Shown piece after piece: positions 1,112 to 12,675 of a DNA stretch of 64,000 bases. Position 1 is the stretch's first letter, and the number at the start of each line of letters is the position of its first letter. The stretch lies in the NCBI GenBank assembly GCA_963727055.1, contig CAVSEN010000002.1, forward strand, positions 305,859-369,858, in the 5' to 3' direction. Source of the stretch: an uncultured Chloroflexia bacterium. Lineage in GTDB: Bacteria > Chloroflexota > Limnocylindria > Limnocylindrales > CSP1-4. The position numbers were made by a program, and so were the translations under genes. The notes under the pieces are model-generated. The model had not been told where the DNA came from. It searched no databases and saw only the letters and a list, made by a program, of their open reading frames with translations.

Positions 1112-2311
1112 CTAGCGCAGGGCGGGGTGGGTGGCCGGCTCGGGCTCGCCGGGGACCACGTCGGACAGGTCGAGCTGGACCGGTCCCGGCCGGGCCAGGA
1201 TCTCGGCCAGCGCGTCGGGGATCGGGTCGACCGAGTCCCAGTCGAGCGGCGGCCGGATCCGGACCGCCTCGGGCGGGATGGCTTCGCCGAGGGCGCCCCG
1301 GACGGGATCGGCAGTCCACTGGATGGCGACCGCGCCCGAGGTGAAGCCGGCCCCGAAGGCGACGATCACGATCCGGTCGCCGATCTTGATCCGGCCACTG
1401 TTGGCGGCCTCGGCCAGGGCGATCGGGATCGAGGCCGCCGACGTGTTGCCGTAGCGGTCGACGTTCACGAACATCCGGTCCATCGGCAGGTCGAGGCCCT
1501 TGGCCACCGCCTCGATGATCCGGACGTTGGCCTGGTGGGGAATGATCAGGCTGATGTCGGCGGGCTGGAGGCCGGCATGCTCGATCGCGGCGAGGGCCGT
1601 GGTCGCCAGCGTCCGGGTCGCGAAGCGGTACGTCTCGCGACCCTCCATCCGGATGTAGTGCTCGCCCCGGGCGATGGTGGCCGTCGACGGCGGGCTCTTC
1701 GAGCCGCCCGACGGCAGCCAGATCATGTAGGCGCCCTGGGGCTCGGTGGTCAGCTCGATCCCCAGCCCGCCGCCGGGCTCGTCCGATGCCGACAGGACGA
1801 CGGCCCCGGCGCCGTCGCCGAACAGGATGCAGGTGTTCCGGTCGGTGTAGTCGAGGAACCGGGTCAGCAGCTCGGCCCCGATCACCAGGACGTGGCGGGC
1901 CATCCCGCTGGTGATGTAGGCCTGGGCCGTGGCATAGCCGTAGACGAAGCCCGAGCAGGCCGCCGCGAGATCCATCGCGACGGCCTTCGTGTTGCCGATC
2001 GCCTCCTTGACCAGCGCGGCGGTGGACGGCATCCAGTAGTCGGGCGTGAGCGTGGCGAGCAGGATCAGGTCGATGTCGTCCGGCTCGATCCCGGCCACGG
2101 CGATCGCCCGCAGGGCGGCGACCGCGGCCATCGAGGCGGTCGTCTCGTGAGCGGCGGCCACGTGCCGCTCGCGGATCCCCGTCCGGCTGACGATCCACTC
2201 GTCGGAGGTGTCGACCATCCGCTCGAGGTCGGCGTTGGTCAGGACGCCGGCCGGCGCGTAGCGGCCCCAGCCGGTGAGGTGCGCGTAGCGCGGGCGCGAA
2301 TCGGCGGTCAC
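1112..2311 (-). CDS. fabH: 3-oxoacyl-ACP synthase III with C-terminal extension
   Basis: DTSDEWIVSRTGIRERH, AACSGF, FGDGAGA, PHQANVRI, GNTSAAS. Confidence 0.95.
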   Translation of the reverse strand: MTADSRPRYAHLTGWGRYAPAGVLTNADLERMVDTSDEWIVSRTGIRERHVAAAHETTASMAAVAALRAIAVAGIEPDDIDLILLATLTPDYWMPSTAALVKEAIGNTKAVAMDLAAACSGFVYGYATAQAYITSGMARHVLVIGAELLTRFLDYTDRNTCILFGDGAGAVVLSASDEPGGGLGIELTTEPQGAYMIWLPSGGSKSPPSTATIARGEHYIRMEGRETYRFATRTLATTALAAIEHAGLQPADISLIIPHQANVRIIEAVAKGLDLPMDRMFVNVDRYGNTSAASIPIALAEAANSGRIKIGDRIVIVAFGAGFTSGAVAIQWTADPVRGALGEAIPPEAVRIRPPLDWDSVDPIPDALAEILARPGPVQLDLSDVVPGEPEPATHPALR

Positions 2312-2874
2312 AGCGGCTCCACCTCGATGAGCGGCTGCCGGGCCTTGACCAGCTGGCCGCTCTCGGCGACCACCCGGACGACACGGCCGGCCAGGTCGGA
2401 CTTGATCTCGTTGAACAGCTTCATCGCCTCGATCAGGCCGATCACCTGGCCGACCGCGACCTCGCCCCCGACCTGGACGTAGTTGGCCGAGCCGGGGGCC
2501 GGCGAGGCATAGAAGATCCCGGTCAGGGGGGCCTTGACCGACGGCCGGGCCGCCTCGGTCGGCGCTGCCGGTCCGCCCGCCCCCGGGCCAGGGCCGACCG
2601 GTACGGCCACCCCGCCCTGGCCCGGCTCGGCCGGGGCGGGTCGGATGGCGGCCGCCTTGCGCAGGATCAGGCCGGTCTCGCCGGCCTCGACCTCGAGCTC
2701 GGTCAGCTCGCTCCGCTCGAGCAGGACGGCCAGCCGGTCGACGAGGTCGAGCAGCGACCGGTCGGCCTCGCCCAGGTCGGGCACGACCGACAGCGTCCCG
2801 TCGGGCGCAGCCGGCAGGGCGACGGGCGCGACCGCGTCGGCGGCGGGCAGGTCGGGAGCGTGCTCGTCGGTCAT
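2308..2874 (-). CDS. accB: Acetyl-CoA carboxylase biotin carboxyl carrier protein
   Basis: MTDEHAPDL... start; Pro/Ala linker; intact biotinylation motif IEAMKLFNEI. Confidence 0.92.
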   Translation of the reverse strand: MTDEHAPDLPAADAVAPVALPAAPDGTLSVVPDLGEADRSLLDLVDRLAVLLERSELTELEVEAGETGLILRKAAAIRPAPAEPGQGGVAVPVGPGPGAGGPAAPTEAARPSVKAPLTGIFYASPAPGSANYVQVGGEVAVGQVIGLIEAMKLFNEIKSDLAGRVVRVVAESGQLVKARQPLIEVEPL

Positions 2875-4133
2875 CCGTCGAACCGGCTGAAGATCAGGGC
2901 GCTGTTCTGGCCGCCGAACCCGAACGAGTTGCTGAGGGCAGTCCGGACCTCGCGCCGGCTGGCGACGAGCGGCGTCAGGTCGAGGCCCTGGGCGAGCTCG
3001 TCGGGGCAGGTCAGGTTGATCGTCGGCGGGATGATCCCGGTCCGGATCGACTGGATCGTCGACGATCGCCTCGATCGCGCCGGCCGCTCCGAGGGTATGG
3101 CCGACCATCGACTTGTTGGCGGTGATCGCGACCTCCGGCGCCCGGTCGCCGAAGATCGTCCGGATCGCCATCAGCTCGGCCTTGTCGCCTTCCGGCGTCG
3201 ACGTCGCGTGGGCGTTCAGGTGGTCGATCGCCTCGGCGCCCAGGCCGGCCTTGTCGAGCGCCCGGCGAGCCGCCCGGACCGCTCCGCTGCCGCCCGGCGC
3301 GGGCAGGGTGATGTGCGACGCGTCGGCCGTGGCGCCGTAGCCGATCAGCTCGGCCAGGGGCTCGGCGCCACGGGCCAGGGCATGCTCGAGCTCCTCGAGG
3401 ACGATCATCCCGCAGCCCTCGCCGATGACGAAGCCGTCGCGGGCCGCGTCGAACGGGCGCGAGGCGCCGGCCGGGTCATCGTTGCGGGTCGACAGCGCCC
3501 GCATCGCGCAGAAGCCGGCGACGAGCGCCTCGTGGATGCCGGCCTCCGAGCCGCCGGCGAGCATCACCTCGGCATCGCCGCGGCGGATCATCTCCCACGA
3601 TTCGCCGATGGCATGACCGCCGGTGGCACACGCCGACACGATCGCGAAGTTCGGGCCGAGCGCTCCGAACGTGATCGACGAGCTGCCCGGCGCCCACGTT
3701 GGGGATCGCCATCGGGACGAAGAACGGGCTGATCCGATCGGGTCCGCGGGTGGCGTTGATCGTGATCTGCTCGCACAGCGTGTTCACGCCGCCCAGCCCG
3801 GTGCCCATGATGACCCCGGTCGCCTCGGCCAGGCCGCCCTCCAGGCGGCCGGGCAGGCCCGCCGAATCGAGCGCTTCGCGGCCGGCCACGAGACCGAACT
3901 GGGTGTAGCGGTCGGACCGCCGCAGCTCCTTCCGGTCGAGGACGTGGCTGGCGTCGAAGTCGACCACCGTTGCGGCGATCTTCGAGTCGACCCGGGCAGG
4001 GTCGAACGAGTCGATCGTGCGCACCCCGGAGCGGCCCGCGATCAGGCTCGACCAGGTCGCCTCGACCTCGATTCCGACGCGCCGACACGACGCCCATCCC
4101 GGTCACGACGACCCGCCGCTCGGAACGGCTCAA
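2871..4133 (-). CDS. fabF: 3-oxoacyl-ACP synthase II, split by about 3 frameshifts (probably sequencing errors)
   Basis: RRVVVTGMGVVS, DRISPFFVPM, SACATG, NAHATSTP, KSMVGHTLGAAG and NSFGFGGQN lie in different frames; breaks near 4075, 3685 and 3060. Confidence 0.9.
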
Positions 4134-4873
4134 CGGACGAGCTTCCCGTTCCGGACCGTCGCCGCCCGGTAGACATCGCCGGGCAGGCCGCGCGCGGAGA
4201 GCGCGTTGCTCACGGCCAGGGTGTCGAATTCGGTCCGCCGGATCTCGCCACCGACCACGTCGCCGTCGACGGTCACGATCGCCCACGAGGCGGTCGGCTC
4301 GCCGTCGAAGACGTAGCCGGCGCTGCCGTCGTTGACGATCAGCTTCCAGCCGAGGTCGCGGACCTCGGGCAGGTGGGTGTGGCCGCAGCAGATCACCCGG
4401 GCGTCGGTCCGCGAGGCGCGCTCGATCGACACGTTCGGATCGAGGCTGGCGTCGAAGCCGTCGGTCTGCGAGCCGGGCGAGGCGTGGGTCGCCAGGAGGA
4501 GCTGCTGGCCCACCCGCAGCCGTCGCTCGGCCGGCAGGCGCCGGAGCCAGTCGATCCGGGCGTCGCCAAGCTCGTCGTGGGCCCACTCGGCCGCCGCCCG
4601 GATCGATTCCGGGACGCCGTCCATCAGCGACGGGAAGGCGGCGGAGTAGTCGAAGTCGGCCACGGCGATGTCGGTGTTGCCGGCCACGACCAGGGCCCCG
4701 TCGGCCTCCAGCTCGCGGATCGCGTCGACCACGCCGGCCGGATCGGGCCCGTTGAGGACCAGGTCGCCGCAGATCATCAGCCCGTCCGGGCGCTCCTTGC
4801 GGATCGCGGCGCGGACGGCCTCGAGGGCCACGAGGTTGCCGTGGACGTCGCTCAGGACGGCGATCCGGGCCAT
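4130..4873 (-). CDS. Metallophosphoesterase (calcineurin-like, YfcE/MJ0912 type)
   Basis: SDVHGN, GDLV, GNTD, HASP and GHTH motifs. Confidence 0.9.
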   Translation of the reverse strand: MARIAVLSDVHGNLVALEAVRAAIRKERPDGLMICGDLVLNGPDPAGVVDAIRELEADGALVVAGNTDIAVADFDYSAAFPSLMDGVPESIRAAAEWAHDELGDARIDWLRRLPAERRLRVGQQLLLATHASPGSQTDGFDASLDPNVSIERASRTDARVICCGHTHLPEVRDLGWKLIVNDGSAGYVFDGEPTASWAIVTVDGDVVGGEIRRTEFDTLAVSNALSARGLPGDVYRAATVRNGKLVR

Positions 4874-5355
4874 CAGCGGAGCACCGATGCGTCCGGGATG
4901 ATGAAGCTCAGCGTCGCCTCGCAGGCGACCTCGCCATCGACGCTGGCGATCCCCAGGCCGCGTCCGAAGCGCCGGCCGAGCTTGTCCATCGTGACCTCGA
5001 GGCGGAGCGTGTCGCCGGGCGCCACGACCCGCTTGAAGCGGCATTCGTCGATCCCGCCGAACAGCCCGATCCGGTCGCCGAAGCCGGGCTGCTTGGCGAC
5101 GAAGACGGCCATCGTCTGGGCCAGGGCCTCGACCTGGATCACCCCGGGCATGACCGGCAGGCCCGGGAAGTGGCCCTGGAAGAACCACTCCGTCGCGGTC
5201 ACGGCCTTGATCCCCACGATCCGCCGGGCGGCCTCGTCGTACTCCACGATCCGGTCAACGAGCAGGAACGGCCAGCGATGCGGGATCAGCCCCTCGATCT
5301 CGCGGGTCGTATGGACGATGGCGGGCGGGGCGTCGGTCACGGGCAGCTCCATCAC
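4873..5355 (-). CDS. fabZ: 3-hydroxyacyl-ACP dehydratase
   Basis: IPHRWPFLLVDRI, FFQGHFPGLPVMPGVIQVEALAQ. Confidence 0.95.
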   Translation of the reverse strand: MMELPVTDAPPAIVHTTREIEGLIPHRWPFLLVDRIVEYDEAARRIVGIKAVTATEWFFQGHFPGLPVMPGVIQVEALAQTMAVFVAKQPGFGDRIGLFGGIDECRFKRVVAPGDTLRLEVTMDKLGRRFGRGLGIASVDGEVACEATLSFIIPDASVLR

Positions 5356-5426: not shown

Positions 5427-6793
5427 CTAGCGAGCCGCGGCGGCCAGGAAGGCGGCCGAACCGACCCGGTCGACAGGTTCGTGGTCATCTCGCCGGCCAG
5501 GAAGGTCTCGTTGCGCAGGAGCGCCTGGTGGATCGCGACATTGGTCACCAGGCCCTCGACGACGAGCTCGTCCAGGGCGGCCAGCGAGCGGGCGATCGCC
5601 GCCGGCCGGTCCTGGCCCCAGACGATCAGCTTGCCCAGGAGCGAGTCGTAGAAGGGCGGCACGTCGTAGCCCGTGTAGAGATGGCTGTCCATCCGGACAC
5701 CGGGGCCGCCGGGGGCGAGGTAGCGCTCGACCACGCCGCTGCCCGGCCGGAAGTCGTGCTCGGGGTCCTCGGCGTTGATCCGGAACTCGAGGGCGTGGCC
5801 GCGCAGCTCGACGTCGGCCTGGCTGAAGCCGAGCGGCTCGCCGGCCGCGATCCGGATCTGGGTGGCGACCATGTCGATCCCGGTCAGCATCTCGGTCACC
5901 GGGTGCTCGACCTGGATCCGGCAGTTGATCTCGATGAAGTAGGCCTTGCCGCTCGGGTCGACCAGGAACTCCAGGGTGCCCACGTTCTCGTAGCCGGCGG
6001 CCACCACCGCCCGGATCGCGTGCTCGGCCAGGTCGGCCCGGGCTGCCGCGTTGAGCGACGGCGCGGGCGCTTCCTCGAGGAACTTCTGGTGCCGGCGCTG
6101 GACGGAGCAGTCGCGCTCGCCGAGGTGGACCCCATGGCCGAAGCGGTCGACGGCGACCTGGACCTCGACGTGGCGGTTGTCCTCGAGCCACTTCTCGAGG
6201 TACAGGGAGTCGTCGCCGAAGGCCGCCCGGGCCTCCGATCGGCAGATCTTGAGGGCCGCCTCGAGCTCGCGCGGCGTGCGGACCATCCGCATCCCCTTGC
6301 CGCCCCCACCGGCCGATGGCTTGATCAGGACGGGATAGCCGATCCGCTCGGCCTCCTCGAGCGCGTGCAGGTCGTCGCGGAGCATCCCGTTCGAGCCCGG
6401 GATCGTCGCCAGACCGTGCGATCCGAGCAGGTGGCGGGTCGCCTCCTTGCTGGCAAAGCGCTCGAGGACCTGGGGCGGCGGGCCGATGAACGTCAGGCCA
6501 TGGGCGCCGACGACCTCGGCGAAGCCCTCGTCCTCGGACAGGAAGCCGTAGCCCGGGTGGATCGCGTCGCAGCCGGCCACGATCGCGGCGCTGATCATCG
6601 CCGGCGCTGACAGGTAGCTCCGCTTGGCGTCCGCCGGGCCGATGCAGATCGCCTCGTCGGCCAGCTGGACGGCCAGGCTGTCGCGATCGGCCTCGCTGTA
6701 GGCCACGACCGCCTCGACCCCGAGGGTCCGGCAGGCGCGCAGGATCCGGACCGCGATCTCGCCCCGGTTGGCGATCAGGATCTTGGCGAACAT
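5427..6793 (-). CDS. accC: Acetyl-CoA carboxylase biotin carboxylase (frameshift near 5475; true stop probably 5427)
   Basis: KILIANRGEIA, HPGYGFLSE, GGGGKGM, ERDCSVQRRHQK, RIQVEHPVTE, YDSLLGKLI. Confidence 0.95.
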
Positions 6794-7317
6794 CAGGCCT
6801 CCCGTCCGGAGCGCTCGGCAGGCGCCGCGATCAGCTCGATCCAGACGAGCTCCTGGCCGTACTCGACCGCGTCGCCGTTCTCGACCATGCCGGCCCCGAC
6901 GATGCCGTTGACCGGGGCGACCACCTCCTGGGCGATGCCCAGCACGTCGACGCTGGCGATCCGATCGCCGGCCCGGACCCGCGAGCCGGAGGCGATCCCC
7001 GGGCGGGGATGGTAGATCCCCACCCCGGGCGAGGTCGCCGCCTCCCGGTACGGATCGGGGGCCGCCTCGGCCGCCGGGGGGTGGGCGTGCTCGACGTGGC
7101 CGGCAGCCGGCCGGGCGCTGCGGGCCGCACCCCGGGCACCTCCCGGGCCGGCCTCCGCCGGCCGGCGGAGGCGAACCTTCCAGCTCCCCTCGCGGACCTC
7201 GATCTCGGCCAGGCCCGTCGCGCCGAGCTTGGCGATCAGCGCCGGCAGGAGCTCATCGGCCAGTCCCTCGATCTGGGCGTGGTCGGCGAGCCGGGCCGCA
7301 TCATCGCGCTCGGGCAC
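6793..7317 (-). CDS. BCCP-like (biotinyl/lipoyl fold) protein lacking the biotin-accepting lysine
   Basis: AccB architecture (LAEIEVREGSWKVRLRR, linker, SPGVGIY, GDAVEYGQELV), but EAMK is replaced by DVLG. Confidence 0.85.
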   Translation of the reverse strand: MPERDDAARLADHAQIEGLADELLPALIAKLGATGLAEIEVREGSWKVRLRRPAEAGPGGARGAARSARPAAGHVEHAHPPAAEAAPDPYREAATSPGVGIYHPRPGIASGSRVRAGDRIASVDVLGIAQEVVAPVNGIVGAGMVENGDAVEYGQELVWIELIAAPAERSGREA

Positions 7318-7320
7318 GGA

Positions 7321-8335
7321 TCAAACCTCCTCGCGAGCCGGCGGCTCGTCGTGCGTGCGGGTGACTGGTTGCCCGGCGCCGTTGGTGGCCCGCGGCGATC
7401 CCCCCAGCAGGTTGCGCAGCCGGTCGGTGAATCCAGGTCGCTCGGGGATCACGACCGGCTCGACCTCGAGCGTGGTGAATGCACCGAGACCACGATAGCG
7501 GCGATACCGGGCGTCGATCAGCTGATCGAGCGGCTGCCGCTCGAGAGCGGCCAGGTGGCGCAGGACGGCGGCCTTGACCACGGCGGCCGTGGCGTGATGA
7601 TCGGTGTGCGCTCCACCGCGGGGCTCCTCGAGGACCTCGTCGACGACGCCCAGCTCGAGCTGGTCGGCCGCCGTCATCCGCATCGCGAGCGCGGCGGCCG
7701 GCGCCTGGTCGGGCGTCCGCCACAGGATCGAGGCGCAGCCCTCGGGGCTGATCACCGAGTAGACCGCATTCTCGAGGGCGAGGACGACGTCGCCGACGGC
7801 GATCGCCAGGGCTCCGCCCGAGCCGCCCTCGCCGGTGATCACGGTCACGATCGGGGTCCGCAGGCGGCTCATCAGGGCGATCGACCTGGCGATCGCCTCG
7901 GCAATCCCGCGCTCCTCCGACTCGGCGCCGGGATGGGCGCCCGGGACGTCGACGAAGGTCACGATCGGCAGGCCGAGGCGCTCGCCGAGCTCCATCACCC
8001 GCATCGCCTTGCGGTAGCCCTCGGGGTGGGGCATCCCGAAGTTGCGCCGGATGTTCTCGTCGGTCTCGGCGCCCTTCTGCTGGCCGACGACGACGACCCG
8101 CTGCCCGTCGATCCGGGCAAGGCCGGCGACGATCGCCGGGTCGTCGCCGAAGAACCGGTCGCCGTGGAGCTCGACGAAATCCTCGGCAATCAGGCCCAGC
8201 AGCTCGAGCGTCCGCGGCCGATGGAGGTTGCGGGCCAGCTGGACCCGGGCCCAGACGGCGGCCGTCGGATCAGCCGGCGAGGCCTCGGGCCCGGCCTCGG
8301 CCGTCCCGCGCCGGCCGGCCCGGGCGATCAGCCGG

Positions 8336-8343
<8 letters not shown>
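7321..8343 (-). CDS. accA: Acetyl-CoA carboxylase carboxyltransferase alpha
   Basis: ELHGDR, RNFGMPHPEGYRKA, GEGGSGGALA, YSVISPEGCASILW. Confidence 0.96.
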
Positions 8344-9280
<937 letters not shown>

Positions 9281-9281
<1 letters not shown>

Positions 9282-9815
9282 CAGGCCAGCCCGCCCTGTT
9301 CTCCCGGTCGACCGTGGGCCGCCCGGATGGCACGGACCATCGGGTCGACCGGTCGGCTCAGGCGCCAGGCGACGAAGACGGCGCCGGCCAGCGAGATGGC
9401 CGCCGAGGTCAGCGCACCGCCGATCAGCAGCGGCCGGGTCCGCGACGGGAACGGATCGTCGTCGTCGACGACCGGATGGGCCGGATCGAGGAGGTCGGAC
9501 GGTTCGAAGGCGGGCTCGATGACCACCCCGATCGGGCTGGGCGCGGGCGCGCCGGCGCCGGCCGTGGCCGACAGGCGCAGGCTGCCGGCGAGCTCATCCA
9601 GGCGCCGGGCAAGGCGCTCCTCGAACCGGAAGGACGGGTGGACCCGGGTCAGGCCGGCCGACAGGCGCTCGGCCGTCACCCGCAGGTCGGGATCGAGGCC
9701 GGCGTCGTACAGGGGCCGCGTCACCGCGCTCACGTGCCAGCAGGATCGATTCGAGGTAGCGATCGATCCGCAGGGCTTCGACCTCGGGCTCGTCGCGCCG
9801 GGGTTCGCTGGTCAC
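9281..9815 (-). CDS. Membrane-anchored hypothetical protein, probable anti-sigma factor (frameshift near 9735)
   Basis: Coupled directly downstream of the ECF sigma; PSFRFEERL segment and a single C-terminal TM helix (LLIGGALTSAAISLAGAVFVAW). Confidence 0.55.
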
Positions 9816-10433
9816 CAGCGCCGGCCGCCCAGGTCACGGGCCACGGCCCGCAGGCCCCGGTGGATCAGGACCCGGACCGCACCCTCGGAGCGCCCCAGGA
9901 TGCCGGCGATCTCGGCCGTCGACATCTCCTCGACGAAGCGCAGGACGAGCGCCCGGCGGCGCTCGGCCGGCAGGCGGGCGACCGCCGCCCAGGCCGCCGC
10001 CACCCTCGTGCCGGTCGGTCACCTGGCGCTCGATGTCGACGGCATCGGCGACGGTGGCCGCCGCCTCGAGCGGTTCGACCGGATGGCGCCGCCGTCCACG
10101 CCGGATGTTGGCCACGACGTTGCGAGCGATCCGGAACAGCCAGACCCGGAAGGTCGAGGCCCCGTCACCGTCGGCCGGCCGGGCCCGCTCCTCGAATCGG
10201 GGCAGGGCGCTGAGAGCGAGCAGGAACGTCCGCTCCGCCGCGTCTTCCGCGTCGTGGTGGTTGCCGAGCTCGTAGAAAGCGTAGCTGTACACCTGGGCCA
10301 GGTACTTCCGATAGAGGGCGTCGAACGCCGTGGGGTCGCGCAGGGCGGCCTCGACGAGCGCTCGATCGCGGTCGAGATGGACGAGACGGCGATCCTCCTC
10401 CGCCTCCACTCTGCTGAACACCGGCCGGGCCAT
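9812..10433 (-). CDS. ECF-type sigma-70 factor (frameshift near 10005)
   Basis: DAEDAAERTF and FRVWLFRIARN (region 2); LPAERRRALVLRF..EIAGILGRSEGAVRVLIHRGL (region 4). Confidence 0.9.
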
Positions 10434-10437
10434 CCTG

Positions 10438-11349
10438 TTACACCCGCACGACGGGCGAGACGGGCGCCGGCAGGCGCAGGTGGTGGATCTCGCCGACCAG
10501 GATCATCCGCTCGCCGCCCGGCGCGGCCGGATCCTCGATCACCAGCCCACCCGAATGGACGTCGACGCCCAGGGCGCGCGTCTCGGTCGCCTGTCCGTCG
10601 GGCAGCTCGAGGCGGACCGGGCGGCCGTTCGTCAGCTGGCGGTCGACCCAGTCGGCCACGTCGAAGTGACCAGCCCGCAGGCCCGCGATGCGCGTCTCCA
10701 GCCGGTCGATGAACGCAGCGAAGAGGGCCGGCAGGTCGACCGGCCGCCCGTTCGAGGCGACCAGCAGGCTGGTCATCGAGCCGGCCAGCTCGGGCGGGAA
10801 GTCGGCGGCGGCCCAGTCGGCGTTCAGGCCGAGGCCGACGATCACCCGCGGGTCGGCCGTCCCCAGCCCGCTCGTCTCGCCCAGCACGCCGCCCAGCTTG
10901 CGGACCTCGAGCGGAGCGGCGATCAGCCGCTCGGCCTCGGCACCACTGGCGTTCGCCAGCCGGGCCCCGCCGACGCCGGTCGTCTCGACGACCAGGTCGT
11001 TGGGCCACTTCAGTCGGATCGAGCGGTCGGGCAGGCCGCCGACCTCCTCGGCCGCATCGGCCATCGCCAGCGAGACGATCGCGGCGAGGCGCCAGGCCCG
11101 GTCGGGGGCGAGCCAGGTCGGTCGAAAGCCGATCGAGCACAGCAGCCCGGCCCCGGGCGGGGCCAGCCAGGTCCGTCCAGCCCGGCCGCGCCCGGCGGTC
11201 TGCTCGTCGGCAACGGCCAGGCAGACCTCGGGCGTCCCCTCGGCCAGCCAGGCCCGGACGACGTCGTTCGTCGACGCCACGCGCTCGAAGCGCTCCTGGC
11301 GGCTGACGAACGGCCGGTCCTCGACGGGCGTCGGCCCGAGCTCGCTCAA
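10438..11349 (-). CDS. birA: Biotin--acetyl-CoA-carboxylase ligase (no N-terminal HTH seen)
   Basis: STND, QTAGRGRAGRTW, KWPNDL, KLGGVL, GLGLN. Confidence 0.92.
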   Translation of the reverse strand: MSELGPTPVEDRPFVSRQERFERVASTNDVVRAWLAEGTPEVCLAVADEQTAGRGRAGRTWLAPPGAGLLCSIGFRPTWLAPDRAWRLAAIVSLAMADAAEEVGGLPDRSIRLKWPNDLVVETTGVGGARLANASGAEAERLIAAPLEVRKLGGVLGETSGLGTADPRVIVGLGLNADWAAADFPPELAGSMTSLLVASNGRPVDLPALFAAFIDRLETRIAGLRAGHFDVADWVDRQLTNGRPVRLELPDGQATETRALGVDVHSGGLVIEDPAAPGGERMILVGEIHHLRLPAPVSPVVRV

Positions 11350-12675
11350 GCGGCGCCGGACGCCGGACCGGCGCTCGCCTCGCCCTCGATCGTCTCCGGG
11401 CGCTCGAGGGCGAAGGCCGAGTGGAGGGCGCGCACGGCGGTCACGACCTGGTCCTCGGCGATGATGCAGGTGATCCGGACCTCGCTCGTCGAGATCATCT
11501 CGATGTTCACCCCGGCCTCGGCCAGGGCCCCGAACATCCGGGCCGCATAGCCCGGCGCGTTGTGGATGCCGGCTCCGACGATCGAGACCTTGGCCACGGC
11601 CGAATCGGCGGTCATCTCGCGGAAGCCGAGCTCGCGGATGATCGGCTCGAGGATCCGCTTGGCGCGGGCCAGCTCGACCTCGGCGATCGTGAAGCTCATG
11701 TCGGTCGAGCCGCCGTGGCCGACGTTCTGGACGATCATGTCGACGTTGATCCCGGCGTCGGCCAGGGGCGCGAAGATCTGGTGGGCGACGCCCGGCCGGT
11801 CGGGCACCGAGACCAGGGTGATCTTGGCCACGTTCCGGTCGTGGGCCAGGCCGCGAACCTTGTTGCGCTGTTCCACGAACTGGTCCTCCTTGATCAGGGT
11901 GCCCGGGGCGTCCTCGAACGAGCTGAGGACCTCGATCACGACGCTCGTTGACCCAGCCCAGCTCGACTGCCCGGACCTGCATCACCTGGGCGCCCTGGTG
12001 GGCGAGCTCGAGCATCTCCTCATAGCCGATCACCGGCAGCTGCCGGGCATCGGCCACGATCCGGGGGTCGGCCGTGAAGATCCCCCGGACGTCGGTGAAG
12101 ACCTGGCAGCGGTCGGCACCCAGCCGGGCGGCCAGGGCGACGGCCGTCGTGTCCGAGCCGCCTCGGCCGAGGGTCGTCGTCTCGCCCTGCTCCAGGTTCG
12201 CCTGGCTGACGCCCTGGAAGCCGGCCACGATCACGACCCGCCCGGCTGCCAGCTCCTTGCGCACCCGGCTGGGATCGACGTTGGCGATCCGGGCTCGCCC
12301 GTGGCGGCCGTCGGTGCTGATCCCGGCCTGGGCGCCGGTCAGGCTGATCGCCGGCACGCCCAGGGCATGGAGGGCCATCGAGACGAGCGTCGCGCTCTGG
12401 TGCTCGCCGGTCGCCAGGAGCATGTCCAGCTCGCGTGAATCGGGGTCGTCGGTGATCGCCGCGGCAAGGGCCAGCAGCTCGTCGGTCGTGTCGCCCATCG
12501 CCGAGACCACGACCACGAGGTCGGAGCCGGTCGCTCGCTCGCGGGCGATCCGGCGCGCCACCCGGCGAATCCGGTCCGCGTCGCCGACCGACGAGCCGCC
12601 GAACTTCTGGACGACGAGGGGCCGCGCCGGCGTCGTGGACGGGTCGGCGTCGGTCTCGGATCTGGACCCCAACAT
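11346..12675 (-). CDS. lysC: Aspartate kinase (frameshift near 11945)
   Basis: VQKFGGSSV, VVSAMG, TLGRGGSDTTA and FTDVRGIFTADPR, then ACT domains and MISTSEVRIT in the second frame. Confidence 0.93.

What the first reader, a model, noticed from the sequence alone, without database searches (positions are those of the whole stretch)
6793..7317. Non-biotinylatable BCCP paralogue (BADC-like) in the accB slot of a bacterial acc operon
Seen: between accA and accC, where accB normally sits, is a 174-aa protein with full BCCP architecture. Its hairpin reads GDRIASV-DVLG-IAQEV (codons 6937-6948), whereas the canonical accB 4 kb downstream reads GQVIGLI-EAMK-LFNEI. The C-terminal domain has no Lys at all, the 'thumb' is shortened, and the ORF is intact and stop/start-coupled to accC, so this is not a single-base error. 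Known: plant plastid heteromeric ACCase has lysine-less BCCP paralogues (BADC1-3) that modulate BC-BCCP assembly; from memory they carry a D/E-x-x-G hairpin (DQFG) and are regarded as plant/algal. Inference: a bacterial BADC-like scaffold or regulator of ACCase, either homologous or convergent.
Basis: partly seen in the sequence, partly recalled or inferred. Interest (0 to 1): 0.8.

Follow-up and report, generated by a model that had tools for sequence, protein, structure and literature searches.

The report
Lysine-less biotin carrier paralogue in Chloroflexota
Between accA and accC this soil or freshwater bacterium encodes a well-conserved copy of the biotin carrier protein that has lost the lysine that carries biotin, so it probably serves acetyl-CoA carboxylase as a structural or regulatory subunit, much like the BADC proteins so far described only in plants and algae.

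Summary
Window 6793..7317 (minus strand) encodes a 174-aa protein, X, with the full BCCP layout. Its hairpin reads D-V-L-G where BCCP has E-A-M-K. There is no Lys after residue 47, and the thumb is 6 residues shorter.

It is not an error or a relic. None of 270 relatives has the Lys and 264 keep [DEN]-x-L-G. The order accD-accA-X-accC-fabZ-phosphoesterase-fabF-accB(EAMK) is kept wherever the 80 related loci reach. An X gene was found in all 45 sampled genomes of the class (Limnocylindria). dN/dS is 0.22-0.30 in both folded domains.

A fold of X with AccC passed its controls (0.76 against 0.00). It places the family's most conserved motifs on biotin carboxylase. A solved E. coli BC-BCCP complex exists, so this pass may reflect likeness only.

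New here: lysine-less BCCPs form one lineage across several Chloroflexota families, elsewhere placed after efp. One is a RefSeq protein of Thermogemmatispora. The Lys-bearing AccB of these genomes has lost the VEYGQ motif that X keeps.

Most likely X is a non-catalytic ACCase subunit, BADC-like in function. Descent shared with plant BADC was not testable. Seven full-text searches found no bacterial report.

The parts
6793..7317 (-). X: a 174-aa BCCP paralogue without the biotinyl lysine. This is the finding.
   Evidence: ORF and translation. Pfam and NCBIfam matches. Relatives. AF2 model with mean pLDDT 86.6.
7165..7302 (-). X N-terminal domain, residues 6-51: a long helix followed by two strands (alpha/beta/beta).
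   Evidence: AF2 gives helix 6-34 and strands 38-43 and 46-51, with pLDDT 86-94. Mean identity is 73% over 235 full-length relatives. dN/dS is 0.22-0.24. The same motif is described for the E. coli BCCP N-terminus (passages of PMC11160672).
7048..7164 (-). X linker, residues 52-90: Ala/Pro/Gly/Arg-rich and predicted disordered.
   Evidence: pLDDT 59-68. Mean identity 38%. dN/dS 0.57-0.67.
6832..7047 (-). X C-terminal pseudo-biotinyl domain, residues 91-162: a barrel-sandwich fold with a shortened thumb.
   Evidence: pLDDT 97-98. Foldseek best hit 1bdo, TM 0.81, rmsd 1.8 A, 32% identity. Mean identity 65%. dN/dS 0.23-0.30.
6937..6948 (-). Hairpin tip D124-V-L-G127, in the place of E-A-M-K.
   Evidence: D124, L126 and G127 are at least 90% conserved in 142 diverse relatives. 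V125 and L126 lie in the predicted AccC interface.
7321..8343 (-). accA, carboxyltransferase alpha.
   Evidence: Pfam ACCA, 380.5 bits. It lies directly upstream of X in 77 of 80 related loci.
8336..9281 (-). accD, carboxyltransferase beta with an N-terminal Zn ribbon. The reading frame is broken near 8968-8985 in this assembly.
   Evidence: Zn_ribbon_ACC and Carboxyl_trans. The two parts are in one frame in relatives.
5427..6793 (-). accC, biotin carboxylase. Its start overlaps the X stop. The frame slips near 5475 in this assembly.
   Evidence: Pfam Biotin_carb_N, CPSase_L_D2 and Biotin_carb_C. Its C-terminus compared with orthologue L010. It lies directly downstream of X in 77 of 80 loci.
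4873..5355 (-). fabZ.
   Evidence: Pfam FabA, 106.2 bits.
4130..4870 (-). Metallophosphoesterase, a conserved member of the cluster.
   Evidence: Pfam Metallophos_2. It is present between fabZ and fabF in the related loci that reach it.
2925..4127 (-). fabF, in several frames in this assembly. Bounds are approximate.
   Evidence: Ketoacyl-synt and Ketoacyl-synt_C pieces.
2308..2874 (-). Canonical accB, 188 aa, with an EAMK hairpin and a full thumb.
   Evidence: Pfam Biotin_lipoyl 51.7 bits and TIGR00531 98.2 bits. Sequence. It is present downstream in all 62 related loci that have at least 5.2 kb beyond X.

Best explanation
X is a non-biotinylatable paralogue of the biotin carboxyl carrier protein. 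[quoted passage not shown]

Shown by the data:
- X has the whole BCCP architecture but no acceptor lysine.
- X is translationally coupled between accA and accC in a fatty-acid-synthesis operon that also carries a normal accB.
- Both folded domains, and the hairpin tip itself, are under purifying selection.

Inferred:
- The C-terminal pseudo-biotinyl domain docks on the N-terminal domain of biotin carboxylase. It uses the face formed by the SPAVG strand, the DVLG hairpin and the VEYGQ strand. That would be the kind of non-catalytic resting site at which E. coli BCCP is seen on BC and the AccD zinc finger.
- The N-terminal alpha/beta/beta domain co-assembles with the like domain of AccB.
- X would then hold BC, CT and the carrier together, and so set how much AccB has access. 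The Lys-bearing AccB, which has lost the VEYGQ motif, would do the shuttling.

Whether the net effect is activation ('glue') or inhibition ('decoy') is not decided.
For: Architecture:
- TIGR00531 is matched end to end.
- The family profile hits full-length E. coli BCCP 4hr7_B at E 5e-19.
- The AF2 model shows an alpha/beta/beta N-domain, a disordered linker and a barrel at pLDDT 98.
- Foldseek's best hit is 1bdo at TM 0.81.

No acceptor lysine:
- 0 of 270 relatives have K at the biotinyl column, and 264 of 270 read [DEN]-x-L-G.
- 192 of 235 full-length relatives have no Lys anywhere in the C-domain.

Operon membership:
- The start is 3 nt after the accA stop and the stop overlaps the accC ATG.
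- accA lies directly upstream in 77 of 80 loci and accC directly downstream in 77 of 80. All genes are on one strand in 80 of 80.
- An EAMK accB lies downstream in all 62 loci with room for it.
- An X gene follows accA in every sampled genome of the class: 43 of 45 at E<=1e-30, and the other 2 as divergent Q-S-L-G-type copies.

Selection (NG86, 59 close pairs / 2221 pairs):
- X 0.36 / 0.40.
- X N-domain 0.22 / 0.24, C-domain 0.23 / 0.30, linker 0.57 / 0.67.
- accB 0.41 / 0.41, accC 0.21 / 0.20.

Binding model:
- X with AccC scores ipSAE 0.76 against a best control of 0.00. That mark was reached by 58 of 80 solved complexes and 2 of 110 mismatched pairs.
- The runs share at least 67% of their contacts, and the partner's pLDDT is at least 67.
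- The interface is X 98-101, 125-126, 128, 150 and 152-155 with AccC 34-98. Most of those X positions are at least 90% conserved in the family.

Division of labour:
- The VE[YF][GD] motif is kept in 25 of 27 X rows and 19 of 21 other lysine-less rows.
- It is lost in 15 of 15 class AccBs.
- It is also lost in 4 Lys-bearing AccBs from three other genomes that also carry a lysine-less copy.

E. coli precedent: a non-catalytic BCCP site on BC and AccD, and an oligomerising BCCP N-terminus (passages of preprint PMC11160672).
Against: - No experiment exists. Binding, stoichiometry, lack of biotinylation and any effect on activity are all inferred.
- The complex prediction concerns a family whose complex is solved (4HR7), so the pass may come from likeness and does not show that this copy binds. 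My own alignments were used, so the calibration counts hold only roughly.
- I did not test X with AccB, or X with AccD; the cap was one job.
- The relatives outside the class sit after efp with no acc gene within the 11-14 kb fetched around them. The lineage as a whole therefore does not need acc linkage and could have another role.
- The VEYGQ contrast rests on few, related genomes, and one genome (G203) has a Lys-bearing copy that keeps the motif.
- dS is probably underestimated at this divergence and GC content, so the dN/dS values are best read relative to the neighbouring genes.
Confidence: 0.6

Rival explanations
1. X is a competitive decoy, as in the 'negative regulator' model of BADC. 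It occupies the BCCP site(s) on biotin carboxylase without delivering biotin and so throttles malonyl-CoA synthesis, perhaps in response to a signal such as pH, PII or acyl-ACP.
For: The architecture and the predicted BC interface are the same as for the best explanation. The hairpin keeps the acidic and hydrophobic positions of E-A-M-K and changes only the Lys ([DE]-x-[LM]-[GRNQ]), as a mimic would. Plant BADC has been described as binding BC and blocking BCCP access (passages of PMC13585458, and PMC11926652).
Against: X is translationally coupled inside the operon that makes the enzyme, so it is probably made in step with the enzyme's subunits. That is an odd design for an inhibitor (inference). 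The Lys-bearing AccB has lost the motif that lies in the predicted interface, so the two copies may not compete for one site. The authors of PMC11926652 themselves argue for 'glue' rather than inhibition in plants.
Confidence: 0.2
2. X has a role outside catalysis by ACCase. It might act as an autoregulator of the acc/fab operon through its N-terminal domain, as proposed for the E. coli AccB N-terminus. Or it might be a sink or adaptor for BirA or PII. In this reading its place in the operon reflects co-regulation only.
For: The N-terminal domain is the best-conserved part, at 73% mean identity. The E. coli BCCP N-terminus is discussed as a regulator of expression (section heading and passage in PMC11160672). 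Efp-linked relatives have no acc neighbours. A birA-like gene lies 3.5 kb away.
Against: The C-terminal domain and its hairpin are as constrained as the N-domain. The conserved C-domain motifs fall in the predicted BC interface. No DNA-binding family was found. With M-K replaced, recognition by BirA is unlikely (inference).
Confidence: 0.1
3. X is a decaying remnant of an accB duplicate, or an assembly artefact, and has no function.
For: The window assembly has frameshifts in several neighbouring genes, and the genome scores 65.8% complete. X scores below the curated BCCP cut-off.
Against: The frame is intact here and in the relatives listed. At least 485 genome stretches encode a relative. 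X was found in all 45 sampled class genomes. dN/dS is 0.22-0.30 in the domains against 0.57-0.67 in the linker. The hairpin is conserved in 264 of 270.
Confidence: 0.03

Closest known systems
Plant and algal BADC proteins (BADC1-3 of Arabidopsis; a BADC-like protein of Chlamydomonas)
   Same: Both are BCCP homologues that lack the biotinylation motif or Lys and are therefore non-catalytic. Both coexist with true BCCP in a heteromeric ACCase. BADC is reported to bind BC and BCCP (passages of PMC11926652, PMC12706156, PMC13585458 and the abstract-level listing of 10.64898/2025.12.30.697075). X shares the lysine loss and the coexistence, and it has a predicted BC interface.
   Different: X is bacterial, operon-encoded and translationally coupled to accC. 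PMC11926652 calls BADC 'unique to the plant htACCase'. X has a shortened thumb. Common descent with BADC was not tested, because no plant sequence was obtainable. In my tree X groups with other Chloroflexota lysine-less proteins, which suggests an independent bacterial origin but does not prove one.
Canonical bacterial BCCP (AccB; E. coli 1BDO / 4HR7; TIGR00531)
   Same: The domain order is the same: an N-terminal alpha/beta/beta domain, a Pro/Ala-rich linker and a C-terminal barrel-sandwich domain. X keeps the SPxVG and VE[YF] motifs.
   Different: X has no biotinyl Lys (D-V-L-G). Its thumb is 6 residues shorter. It scores 48.9 bits against a cut-off of 115.2. It cannot carry carboxybiotin.
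Non-catalytic epsilon subunits of actinobacterial acyl-CoA carboxylases (AccE/PccE type)
   Same: Both are small non-catalytic subunits said to act as 'glue' for holoenzyme assembly (cited in a passage of PMC11926652).
   Different: From my own knowledge, not tested here: epsilon subunits are not BCCP homologues, and they bind the carboxyltransferase side of fused BC-BCCP enzymes.
Efp-linked lysine-less BCCP-like proteins of other Chloroflexota (including Thermogemmatispora sp. WP_376793653.1)
   Same: They belong to the same lysine-less lineage. It is one side of a branch against the Lys-bearing BCCPs, with SH-aLRT 96 after the hairpin columns were removed. They have the same alpha/beta/beta N-domain pattern and the VEYGQ motif.
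   Different: They are shorter, at about 140-165 aa. Their hairpins read DVLG, EVLR, ETLG, EALG, EAMR or EALN. They lie in a pepP-efp-X'-xseA context with no acc gene nearby. Sources annotate them only as 'BCCP' or 'hypothetical'.

Membership tests
BCCP / AccB (TIGR00531, functional biotin carrier) | Biotinyl-domain fold (barrel sandwich) | tested here: met
   Pfam Biotin_lipoyl 25.7 bits against a cut-off of 22.1. AF2 C-domain pLDDT 97-98. Foldseek 1bdo TM 0.81, rmsd 1.8 A.
BCCP / AccB (TIGR00531, functional biotin carrier) | Acceptor lysine in the (E)-A/V-M-K hairpin | tested here: not met
   The hairpin reads D-V-L-G, and there is no Lys after residue 47. 0 of 270 relatives have K at that column.
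BCCP / AccB (TIGR00531, functional biotin carrier) | N-terminal alpha/beta/beta domain followed by a Pro/Ala-rich linker | tested here: met
   Helix 6-34, strands 38-43 and 46-51, low-confidence region 52-90. The family profile aligns to 4hr7_B from its residue 28.
BCCP / AccB (TIGR00531, functional biotin carrier) | 'Thumb' protrusion between strands 2 and 3 | tested here: not met
   There is a 6-residue deletion relative to the window's AccB in all 31 X rows. The profile is gapped in the same place against E. coli BCCP.
BCCP / AccB (TIGR00531, functional biotin carrier) | Score above the curated equivalog cut-off | tested here: not met
   48.9 bits against 115.2. The window's true AccB also misses the cut-off, at 98.2 bits, so this row alone is weak.
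BADC-type non-catalytic BCCP paralogue (by function) | BCCP homologue without the biotinylation motif | tested here: met
   The definition is as given in passages of PMC11926652 and PMC12706156.
BADC-type non-catalytic BCCP paralogue (by function) | Coexists with a catalytic BCCP and a heteromeric ACCase in the same organism | tested here: met
   accD, accA, accC and an EAMK accB lie in the same cluster. The same holds in 58 of 80 loci that hold the full set, and accB is present in all 62 with room for it.
BADC-type non-catalytic BCCP paralogue (by function) | Binds biotin carboxylase and/or BCCP | tested here: inconclusive
   This rests on prediction only. X with AccC scores 0.76 against a best control of 0.00. 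The mark was reached by 58 of 80 solved complexes and 2 of 110 mismatched pairs. A like complex (4HR7) is solved, so the pass may reflect likeness. X with AccB was not run.
BADC-type non-catalytic BCCP paralogue (by function) | Not biotinylated in vivo, and changes ACCase assembly or activity | not testable with these tools
   This needs a streptavidin blot or mass spectrometry, and enzyme reconstitution.
Plant/algal BADC family (by descent) | Groups with plant BADC rather than with bacterial BCCP in a phylogeny | not tested
   No plant BADC sequence could be obtained. The PDB search listed none. The Atlas gave only Chloroflexota clusters. The papers on BADC evolution were not held.

The most novel reading that the evidence does not exclude
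Chloroflexota have split the BCCP job between two proteins. An old lineage of lysine-less BCCPs, found in several families of the phylum, keeps the surface that docks on biotin carboxylase and serves as a fixed structural subunit of ACCase. The Lys-bearing AccB has given up that surface and is a pure swinging carrier. This would be the first bacterial counterpart of plant BADC. It would show that the heteromeric ACCase has an obligatory 'structural BCCP' position, the non-catalytic site seen in E. coli filaments, which evolution has twice filled with a dedicated pseudo-carrier.
Probability: 0.35. Interest if true: 0.8.

Novelty: new variant of a known kind. Interest (0 to 1): 0.68.

Why it matters
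Heteromeric ACCase is the committed step of fatty-acid synthesis and a target for antibiotics, herbicides and engineering. How its four subunits assemble is only now being seen.

Non-catalytic BCCP look-alikes (BADC) are treated in the papers I could read as a plant and algal invention, and their mode of action, glue or brake, is disputed.

A bacterial, operon-encoded counterpart would give a simple system for settling what a lysine-less BCCP does. It could be expressed in E. coli, and a relative exists in a cultured genus. It would also show that this solution arose outside plastids.

There is a practical point as well. Hundreds of database entries named 'acetyl-CoA carboxylase biotin carboxyl carrier protein' in Chloroflexota cannot carry biotin. 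Pathway reconstructions that count them as AccB are therefore wrong.

Tried and rejected
- Plant BADC comparison: no plant BADC sequence could be obtained from any tool, so there is no joint phylogeny.
- Papers not held: Salie 2016, Shivaiah 2020, the 2024 Phil Trans paper on the evolution of ACCase regulatory subunits, and Broussard 2013. What they say on BADC origin or the 4HR7 interface I know only through other papers' passages or from recall. Supplements were not consulted.
- Protein Atlas: it listed only unnamed Chloroflexota clusters and ran no structure search.
- Expression: two soil metatranscriptome runs held 5-6% of the sampled words. When laid, they gave contigs mostly under 95% alike, on accC and accA. 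Over X there was only shallow cover of the N-domain part (depth 6.6-19 in bins 7117-7318). These are contigs of relatives in RNA libraries that may hold DNA, so I draw no conclusion on transcription.
- Assembly error as an explanation of the missing Lys: rejected, because orthologues from other assemblies agree.
- The idea that X descends specifically from the efp-linked 'standard' accB while the EAMK copy is an acquired replacement: the tree is unrooted and short (156-165 columns), so it cannot tell.
- Further complex predictions (X with AccB N-domains; X with the AccD zinc ribbon): not run, because the cap was one job.
- Whether the predicted X-AccC interface equals the 4HR7 site: I could not check this residue by residue.
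Full report
WHAT IS THERE. On the minus strand the window carries a tight fatty-acid-synthesis cluster:
- accD (9281..8336, with a Zn ribbon)
- accA (8343..7321)
- X (7317..6793)
- accC (6793..about 5427)
- fabZ (5355..4873)
- a metallophosphoesterase (4870..4130)
- fabF (about 4127..2925)
- a canonical accB (2874..2308)

X starts with GTG 3 nt after the accA stop, behind a GAGGAGG. Its TGA shares a base with the accC ATG. X is 174 aa. Its only lysines are K30 and K47. The hairpin reads D124-V-L-G127 (6948..6937), where the accB of the same cluster reads E-A-M-K. The thumb is 6 residues shorter than in that AccB and in E. coli BCCP.

X matches Pfam Biotin_lipoyl just above its cut-off (25.7 against 22.1 bits). 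It matches the BCCP equivalog TIGR00531 over positions 8-155 of 156, but at 48.9 bits against a cut-off of 115.2.

IS IT REAL? The assembly is error-prone. accD, the 3' end of accC, fabF and the aspartate kinase/birA region are frameshifted compared with relatives, and the genome of 3 contigs scores 65.8% complete. X, however, is intact and colinear with relatives from other assemblies.

A word-indexed search gave 2246 proteins at E<=0.001 among 4085 candidates, of which 120 were listed. A full HMMER scan of 1.84 billion representatives gave 1820 at E<=0.001, 276 at E<=1e-10 and 29 at E<=1e-30, of which 150 were listed. In the 270 sequences I held, none has Lys at the biotinyl column and 264 read [DEN]-x-L-G. 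The tally was DVLG 182, DMLG 44, DLLG 14, DCLG 9, EVLG 6, NVLG 4 and a few others; the remaining 6 rows are gapped or out of frame.

Of the 235 full-length rows, 192 have no Lys anywhere in the C-domain. Mean identity to X is 73% in the N-domain, 38% in the linker and 65% in the C-domain.

SYNTENY AND RANGE. Of these, 485 encode a relative, and the best 80 were kept. All 80 are Chloroflexota MAGs, many titled Candidatus Limnocylindrales or Limnocylindria. One is titled Candidatus Eisenbacteria, and a few carry other Chloroflexota class names.

Counts over the 80 loci:
- accA lies directly upstream of X in 77.
- accC lies directly downstream in 77.
- On each side, the other 3 have X at a contig end.
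- All cluster genes are on one strand in 80.
- An EAMK accB lies downstream in all 62 that have at least 5.2 kb beyond X.
- The full set of genes is present in 58.

I then sampled 401 genomes of the phylum. The X profile hit 23 of 23, 4 of 4 and 16 of 16 genomes of three families of the class at E<=1e-30, and 0 of 2 in a fourth family at the E<=1e-20 cut. Those two genomes do have a divergent copy right after accA. One was read and has a Q-S-L-G hairpin. The other is a profile match placed just after accA, whose hairpin I did not read. So an X gene was found in all 45 sampled class genomes. In one family fabD sits between X and accC.

SELECTION. I computed Nei-Gojobori dN/dS on codon alignments of the locus genes, over 2221 pairs and over the 59 closest pairs.

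| Gene or part | dN/dS, all pairs | dN/dS, closest pairs |
|---|---|---|
| X (whole) | 0.40 | 0.36 |
| accB | 0.41 | 0.41 |
| accA | 0.27 | 0.29 |
| accC | 0.20 | 0.21 |
| X N-domain | 0.24 | 0.22 |
| X C-domain | 0.30 | 0.23 |
| X linker | 0.67 | 0.57 |

dS is likely underestimated at this divergence, so the comparison with the neighbouring genes is the sound reading. X is as constrained as the true carrier, and both of its folded domains are constrained.

STRUCTURE. The AF2 model, built with 142 relatives, has mean pLDDT 86.6. It shows a helix at 6-34, strands at 38-43 and 46-51, a low-confidence linker at 52-90 and a barrel at 91-162 with pLDDT 97-98. Foldseek's best match is the E. coli biotinyl domain 1bdo (TM 0.81, rmsd 1.8 A, 32% identity). 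The family profile finds full-length E. coli BCCP (4hr7_B) at E 5e-19.

A preprint on E. coli ACCase filaments (passages read, PMC11160672) reports three relevant things. The first 30 residues of BCCP are predicted to form an alpha/beta/beta motif. That motif may oligomerise into a hub. [quoted passage not shown]

BINDING MODEL. I had one complex job. I used it for AccC (residues 1-440, alignment of 35) with X (alignment of 142). The score was 0.76 and the best of 3 controls was 0.00. That mark was reached by 58 of 80 solved complexes and 2 of 110 mismatched pairs. The runs share at least 67% of their contacts, and the partner's pLDDT is at least 67.

The confident contacts are X 98-101, 125-126, 128, 150 and 152-155 with AccC 34, 49-53, 59, 64-73 and 98. 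On the X side these are the SPAVG strand, the hairpin tip and the VEYGQ strand, whose positions are mostly at least 90% conserved in the family.

Three caveats apply. A like complex is solved, so the pass may be memory of 4HR7. My own alignments were used, so the calibration counts hold only roughly. And the score is not a measurement.

A WIDER LINEAGE. Outside the class, the 16 weak hits were a mix. Of the 7 short stretches fetched first, 4 were lysine-less and 3 had EAMK. Eight wider loci from eight genomes were all lysine-less, reading DVLG, EVLG, ETLG, EALG or EVLR. They had no acc, fabZ or phosphoesterase gene in the 7-14 kb fetched.

In the 4 loci scanned with Pfam, EF-P lies directly upstream in 4 of 4. 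Exonuclease VII large subunit lies downstream in 3 of 4. An M24 peptidase lies before efp in the 2 loci examined for it.

Of five such genomes, 4 have accA elsewhere; the fifth is 76% complete. Separate Lys-bearing small BCCPs were read in G161, G071, G068 and G203.

A profile of these efp-linked proteins found 777 proteins at E<=0.001, of which 120 were listed. Of the 70 not seen before, 48 lack M-K. Over 158 proteins from the two searches the hairpins were DVLG 74, EAMK 41, EVLR 18, ETLG 7, EALR 3 (2 of them with a K one position later), and EVLG, EAMR, ESLG, EVMR, ETLR, EALG, EVFR, EALN and ETLQ at 1-2 each.

One of these, with an EALN hairpin, is RefSeq WP_376793653.1 of Thermogemmatispora sp., named 'acetyl-CoA carboxylase biotin carboxyl carrier protein'. 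An EALRK protein comes from an Armatimonadota MAG.

In a maximum-likelihood tree of 89-90 rows, the 47 lysine-less rows are one side of a branch against the 42 Lys-bearing rows. Support is SH-aLRT 97, and 96 after the nine hairpin columns are removed. The acc-linked X rows form a group with support 98-99. The tree is unrooted, short and sampled mostly from this phylum. It is compatible with one old loss of the lysine but does not prove it.

DIVISION OF LABOUR. The VE[YF][GD] motif lies in the predicted BC interface. Its distribution:
- kept in 25 of 27 X rows;
- kept in 19 of 21 other lysine-less rows;
- kept in 19 of 19 Lys-bearing BCCPs of unknown taxa;
- kept in 4 of 8 Lys-bearing BCCPs of other Chloroflexota;
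- absent from 15 of 15 AccBs of this class;
- absent from 4 Lys-bearing copies in three genomes (G161, G071, and G068/G203) that also have a lysine-less paralogue.

One exception is a second Lys-bearing copy in G203, which keeps the motif. The sample is small and the genomes are related, so this is a lead. It does suggest that X kept the docking face while AccB kept the lysine.

MECHANISM. Most likely (0.6), X is a non-catalytic ACCase subunit. Its pseudo-biotinyl domain sits on BC, perhaps at the non-catalytic BCCP site together with the AccD zinc ribbon. Its N-domain joins the AccB N-domains. It thereby organises the complex or meters the carrier's access.

Shown: the architecture, the loss of the lysine, the operon coupling, the conservation and the constraint. 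Inferred: the binding, the site and the effect.

Rivals are a competitive brake (0.2), a role outside catalysis such as operon autoregulation or a BirA or PII adaptor (0.1), and a dead relic (0.03, contradicted by the conservation).

COMPARISON AND NOVELTY. X works like plant BADC as the papers I read describe it: a BCCP homologue without the biotinylation motif that binds BC and BCCP (passages of PMC11926652, PMC12706156, PMC13585458 and PMC11889953). PMC11926652 calls BADC 'unique to the plant htACCase'.

X is not a functional BCCP, because the defining lysine was tested and not met. Membership of the BADC family by descent could not be tested.

Seven full-text searches returned only plant and algal BADC work and no report of a bacterial lysine-less BCCP. 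The library lacks most subscription papers, including the three most relevant to BADC evolution. I therefore rate the finding a new variant of a known kind, with interest 0.68.

Noticed in passing
window 8968-8985 (accD), about 5475 (accC 3' end), 2925-4127 (fabF), 10438-12675 (ask/birA): Reading frames are broken in several conserved genes that are intact in relatives. The genome is in 3 contigs and scores only 65.8% complete. This looks like indel errors of a long-read assembly rather than gene decay.
   Followed up: partly
window 10438-11330, minus strand: A biotin-protein-ligase (BPL_LplA_LipB) reading frame runs on from a frameshifted aspartate kinase in one 745-aa ORF. It lies 3.5 kb from the acc cluster, so the organism has the enzyme needed to biotinylate its true AccB.
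   Followed up: partly
window 4130-4870, minus strand; the same place in related loci L008-L086: A calcineurin-like metallophosphoesterase is a fixed member of the cluster between fabZ and fabF in the related loci that reach it. Its role in a fatty-acid-synthesis operon is unexplained.
   Followed up: no
L100, L102, L103, L105 (other Chloroflexota families): Lysine-less BCCP-like genes sit in a pepP(M24)-efp-X'-xseA arrangement. This is the place where accB-accC follows efp in many bacteria (that comparison is recalled). No accC is present there.
   Followed up: partly
L096-L099 (a sister family within the class): fabD (Acyl_transf_1) is inserted between X and accC, so the stop/start coupling of X to accC is not universal in the class.
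   Followed up: partly
window 2308-2874 and accB of the related loci; L108, L109, L110, L112: Lys-bearing AccBs of genomes that also hold a lysine-less paralogue read EAMK[LV]FNE and have lost the VE[YF]G motif near the C-terminus. That motif is kept by other BCCPs and by X.
   Followed up: partly
proteins P0399, P0401, P0440 (P0440 is from an Armatimonadota MAG): A BCCP-like group has the hairpin E-A-L-R-K, with the lysine one position later than usual. Whether it can be biotinylated is unclear. It hints that lysine-shifted or lysine-less carriers exist outside Chloroflexota.
   Followed up: no
window 9284-10433, minus strand: An ECF-type sigma factor (Sigma70_r2) is followed by a 150-aa protein with no family match, possibly its anti-sigma factor. 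The pair lies directly upstream of accD.
   Followed up: no
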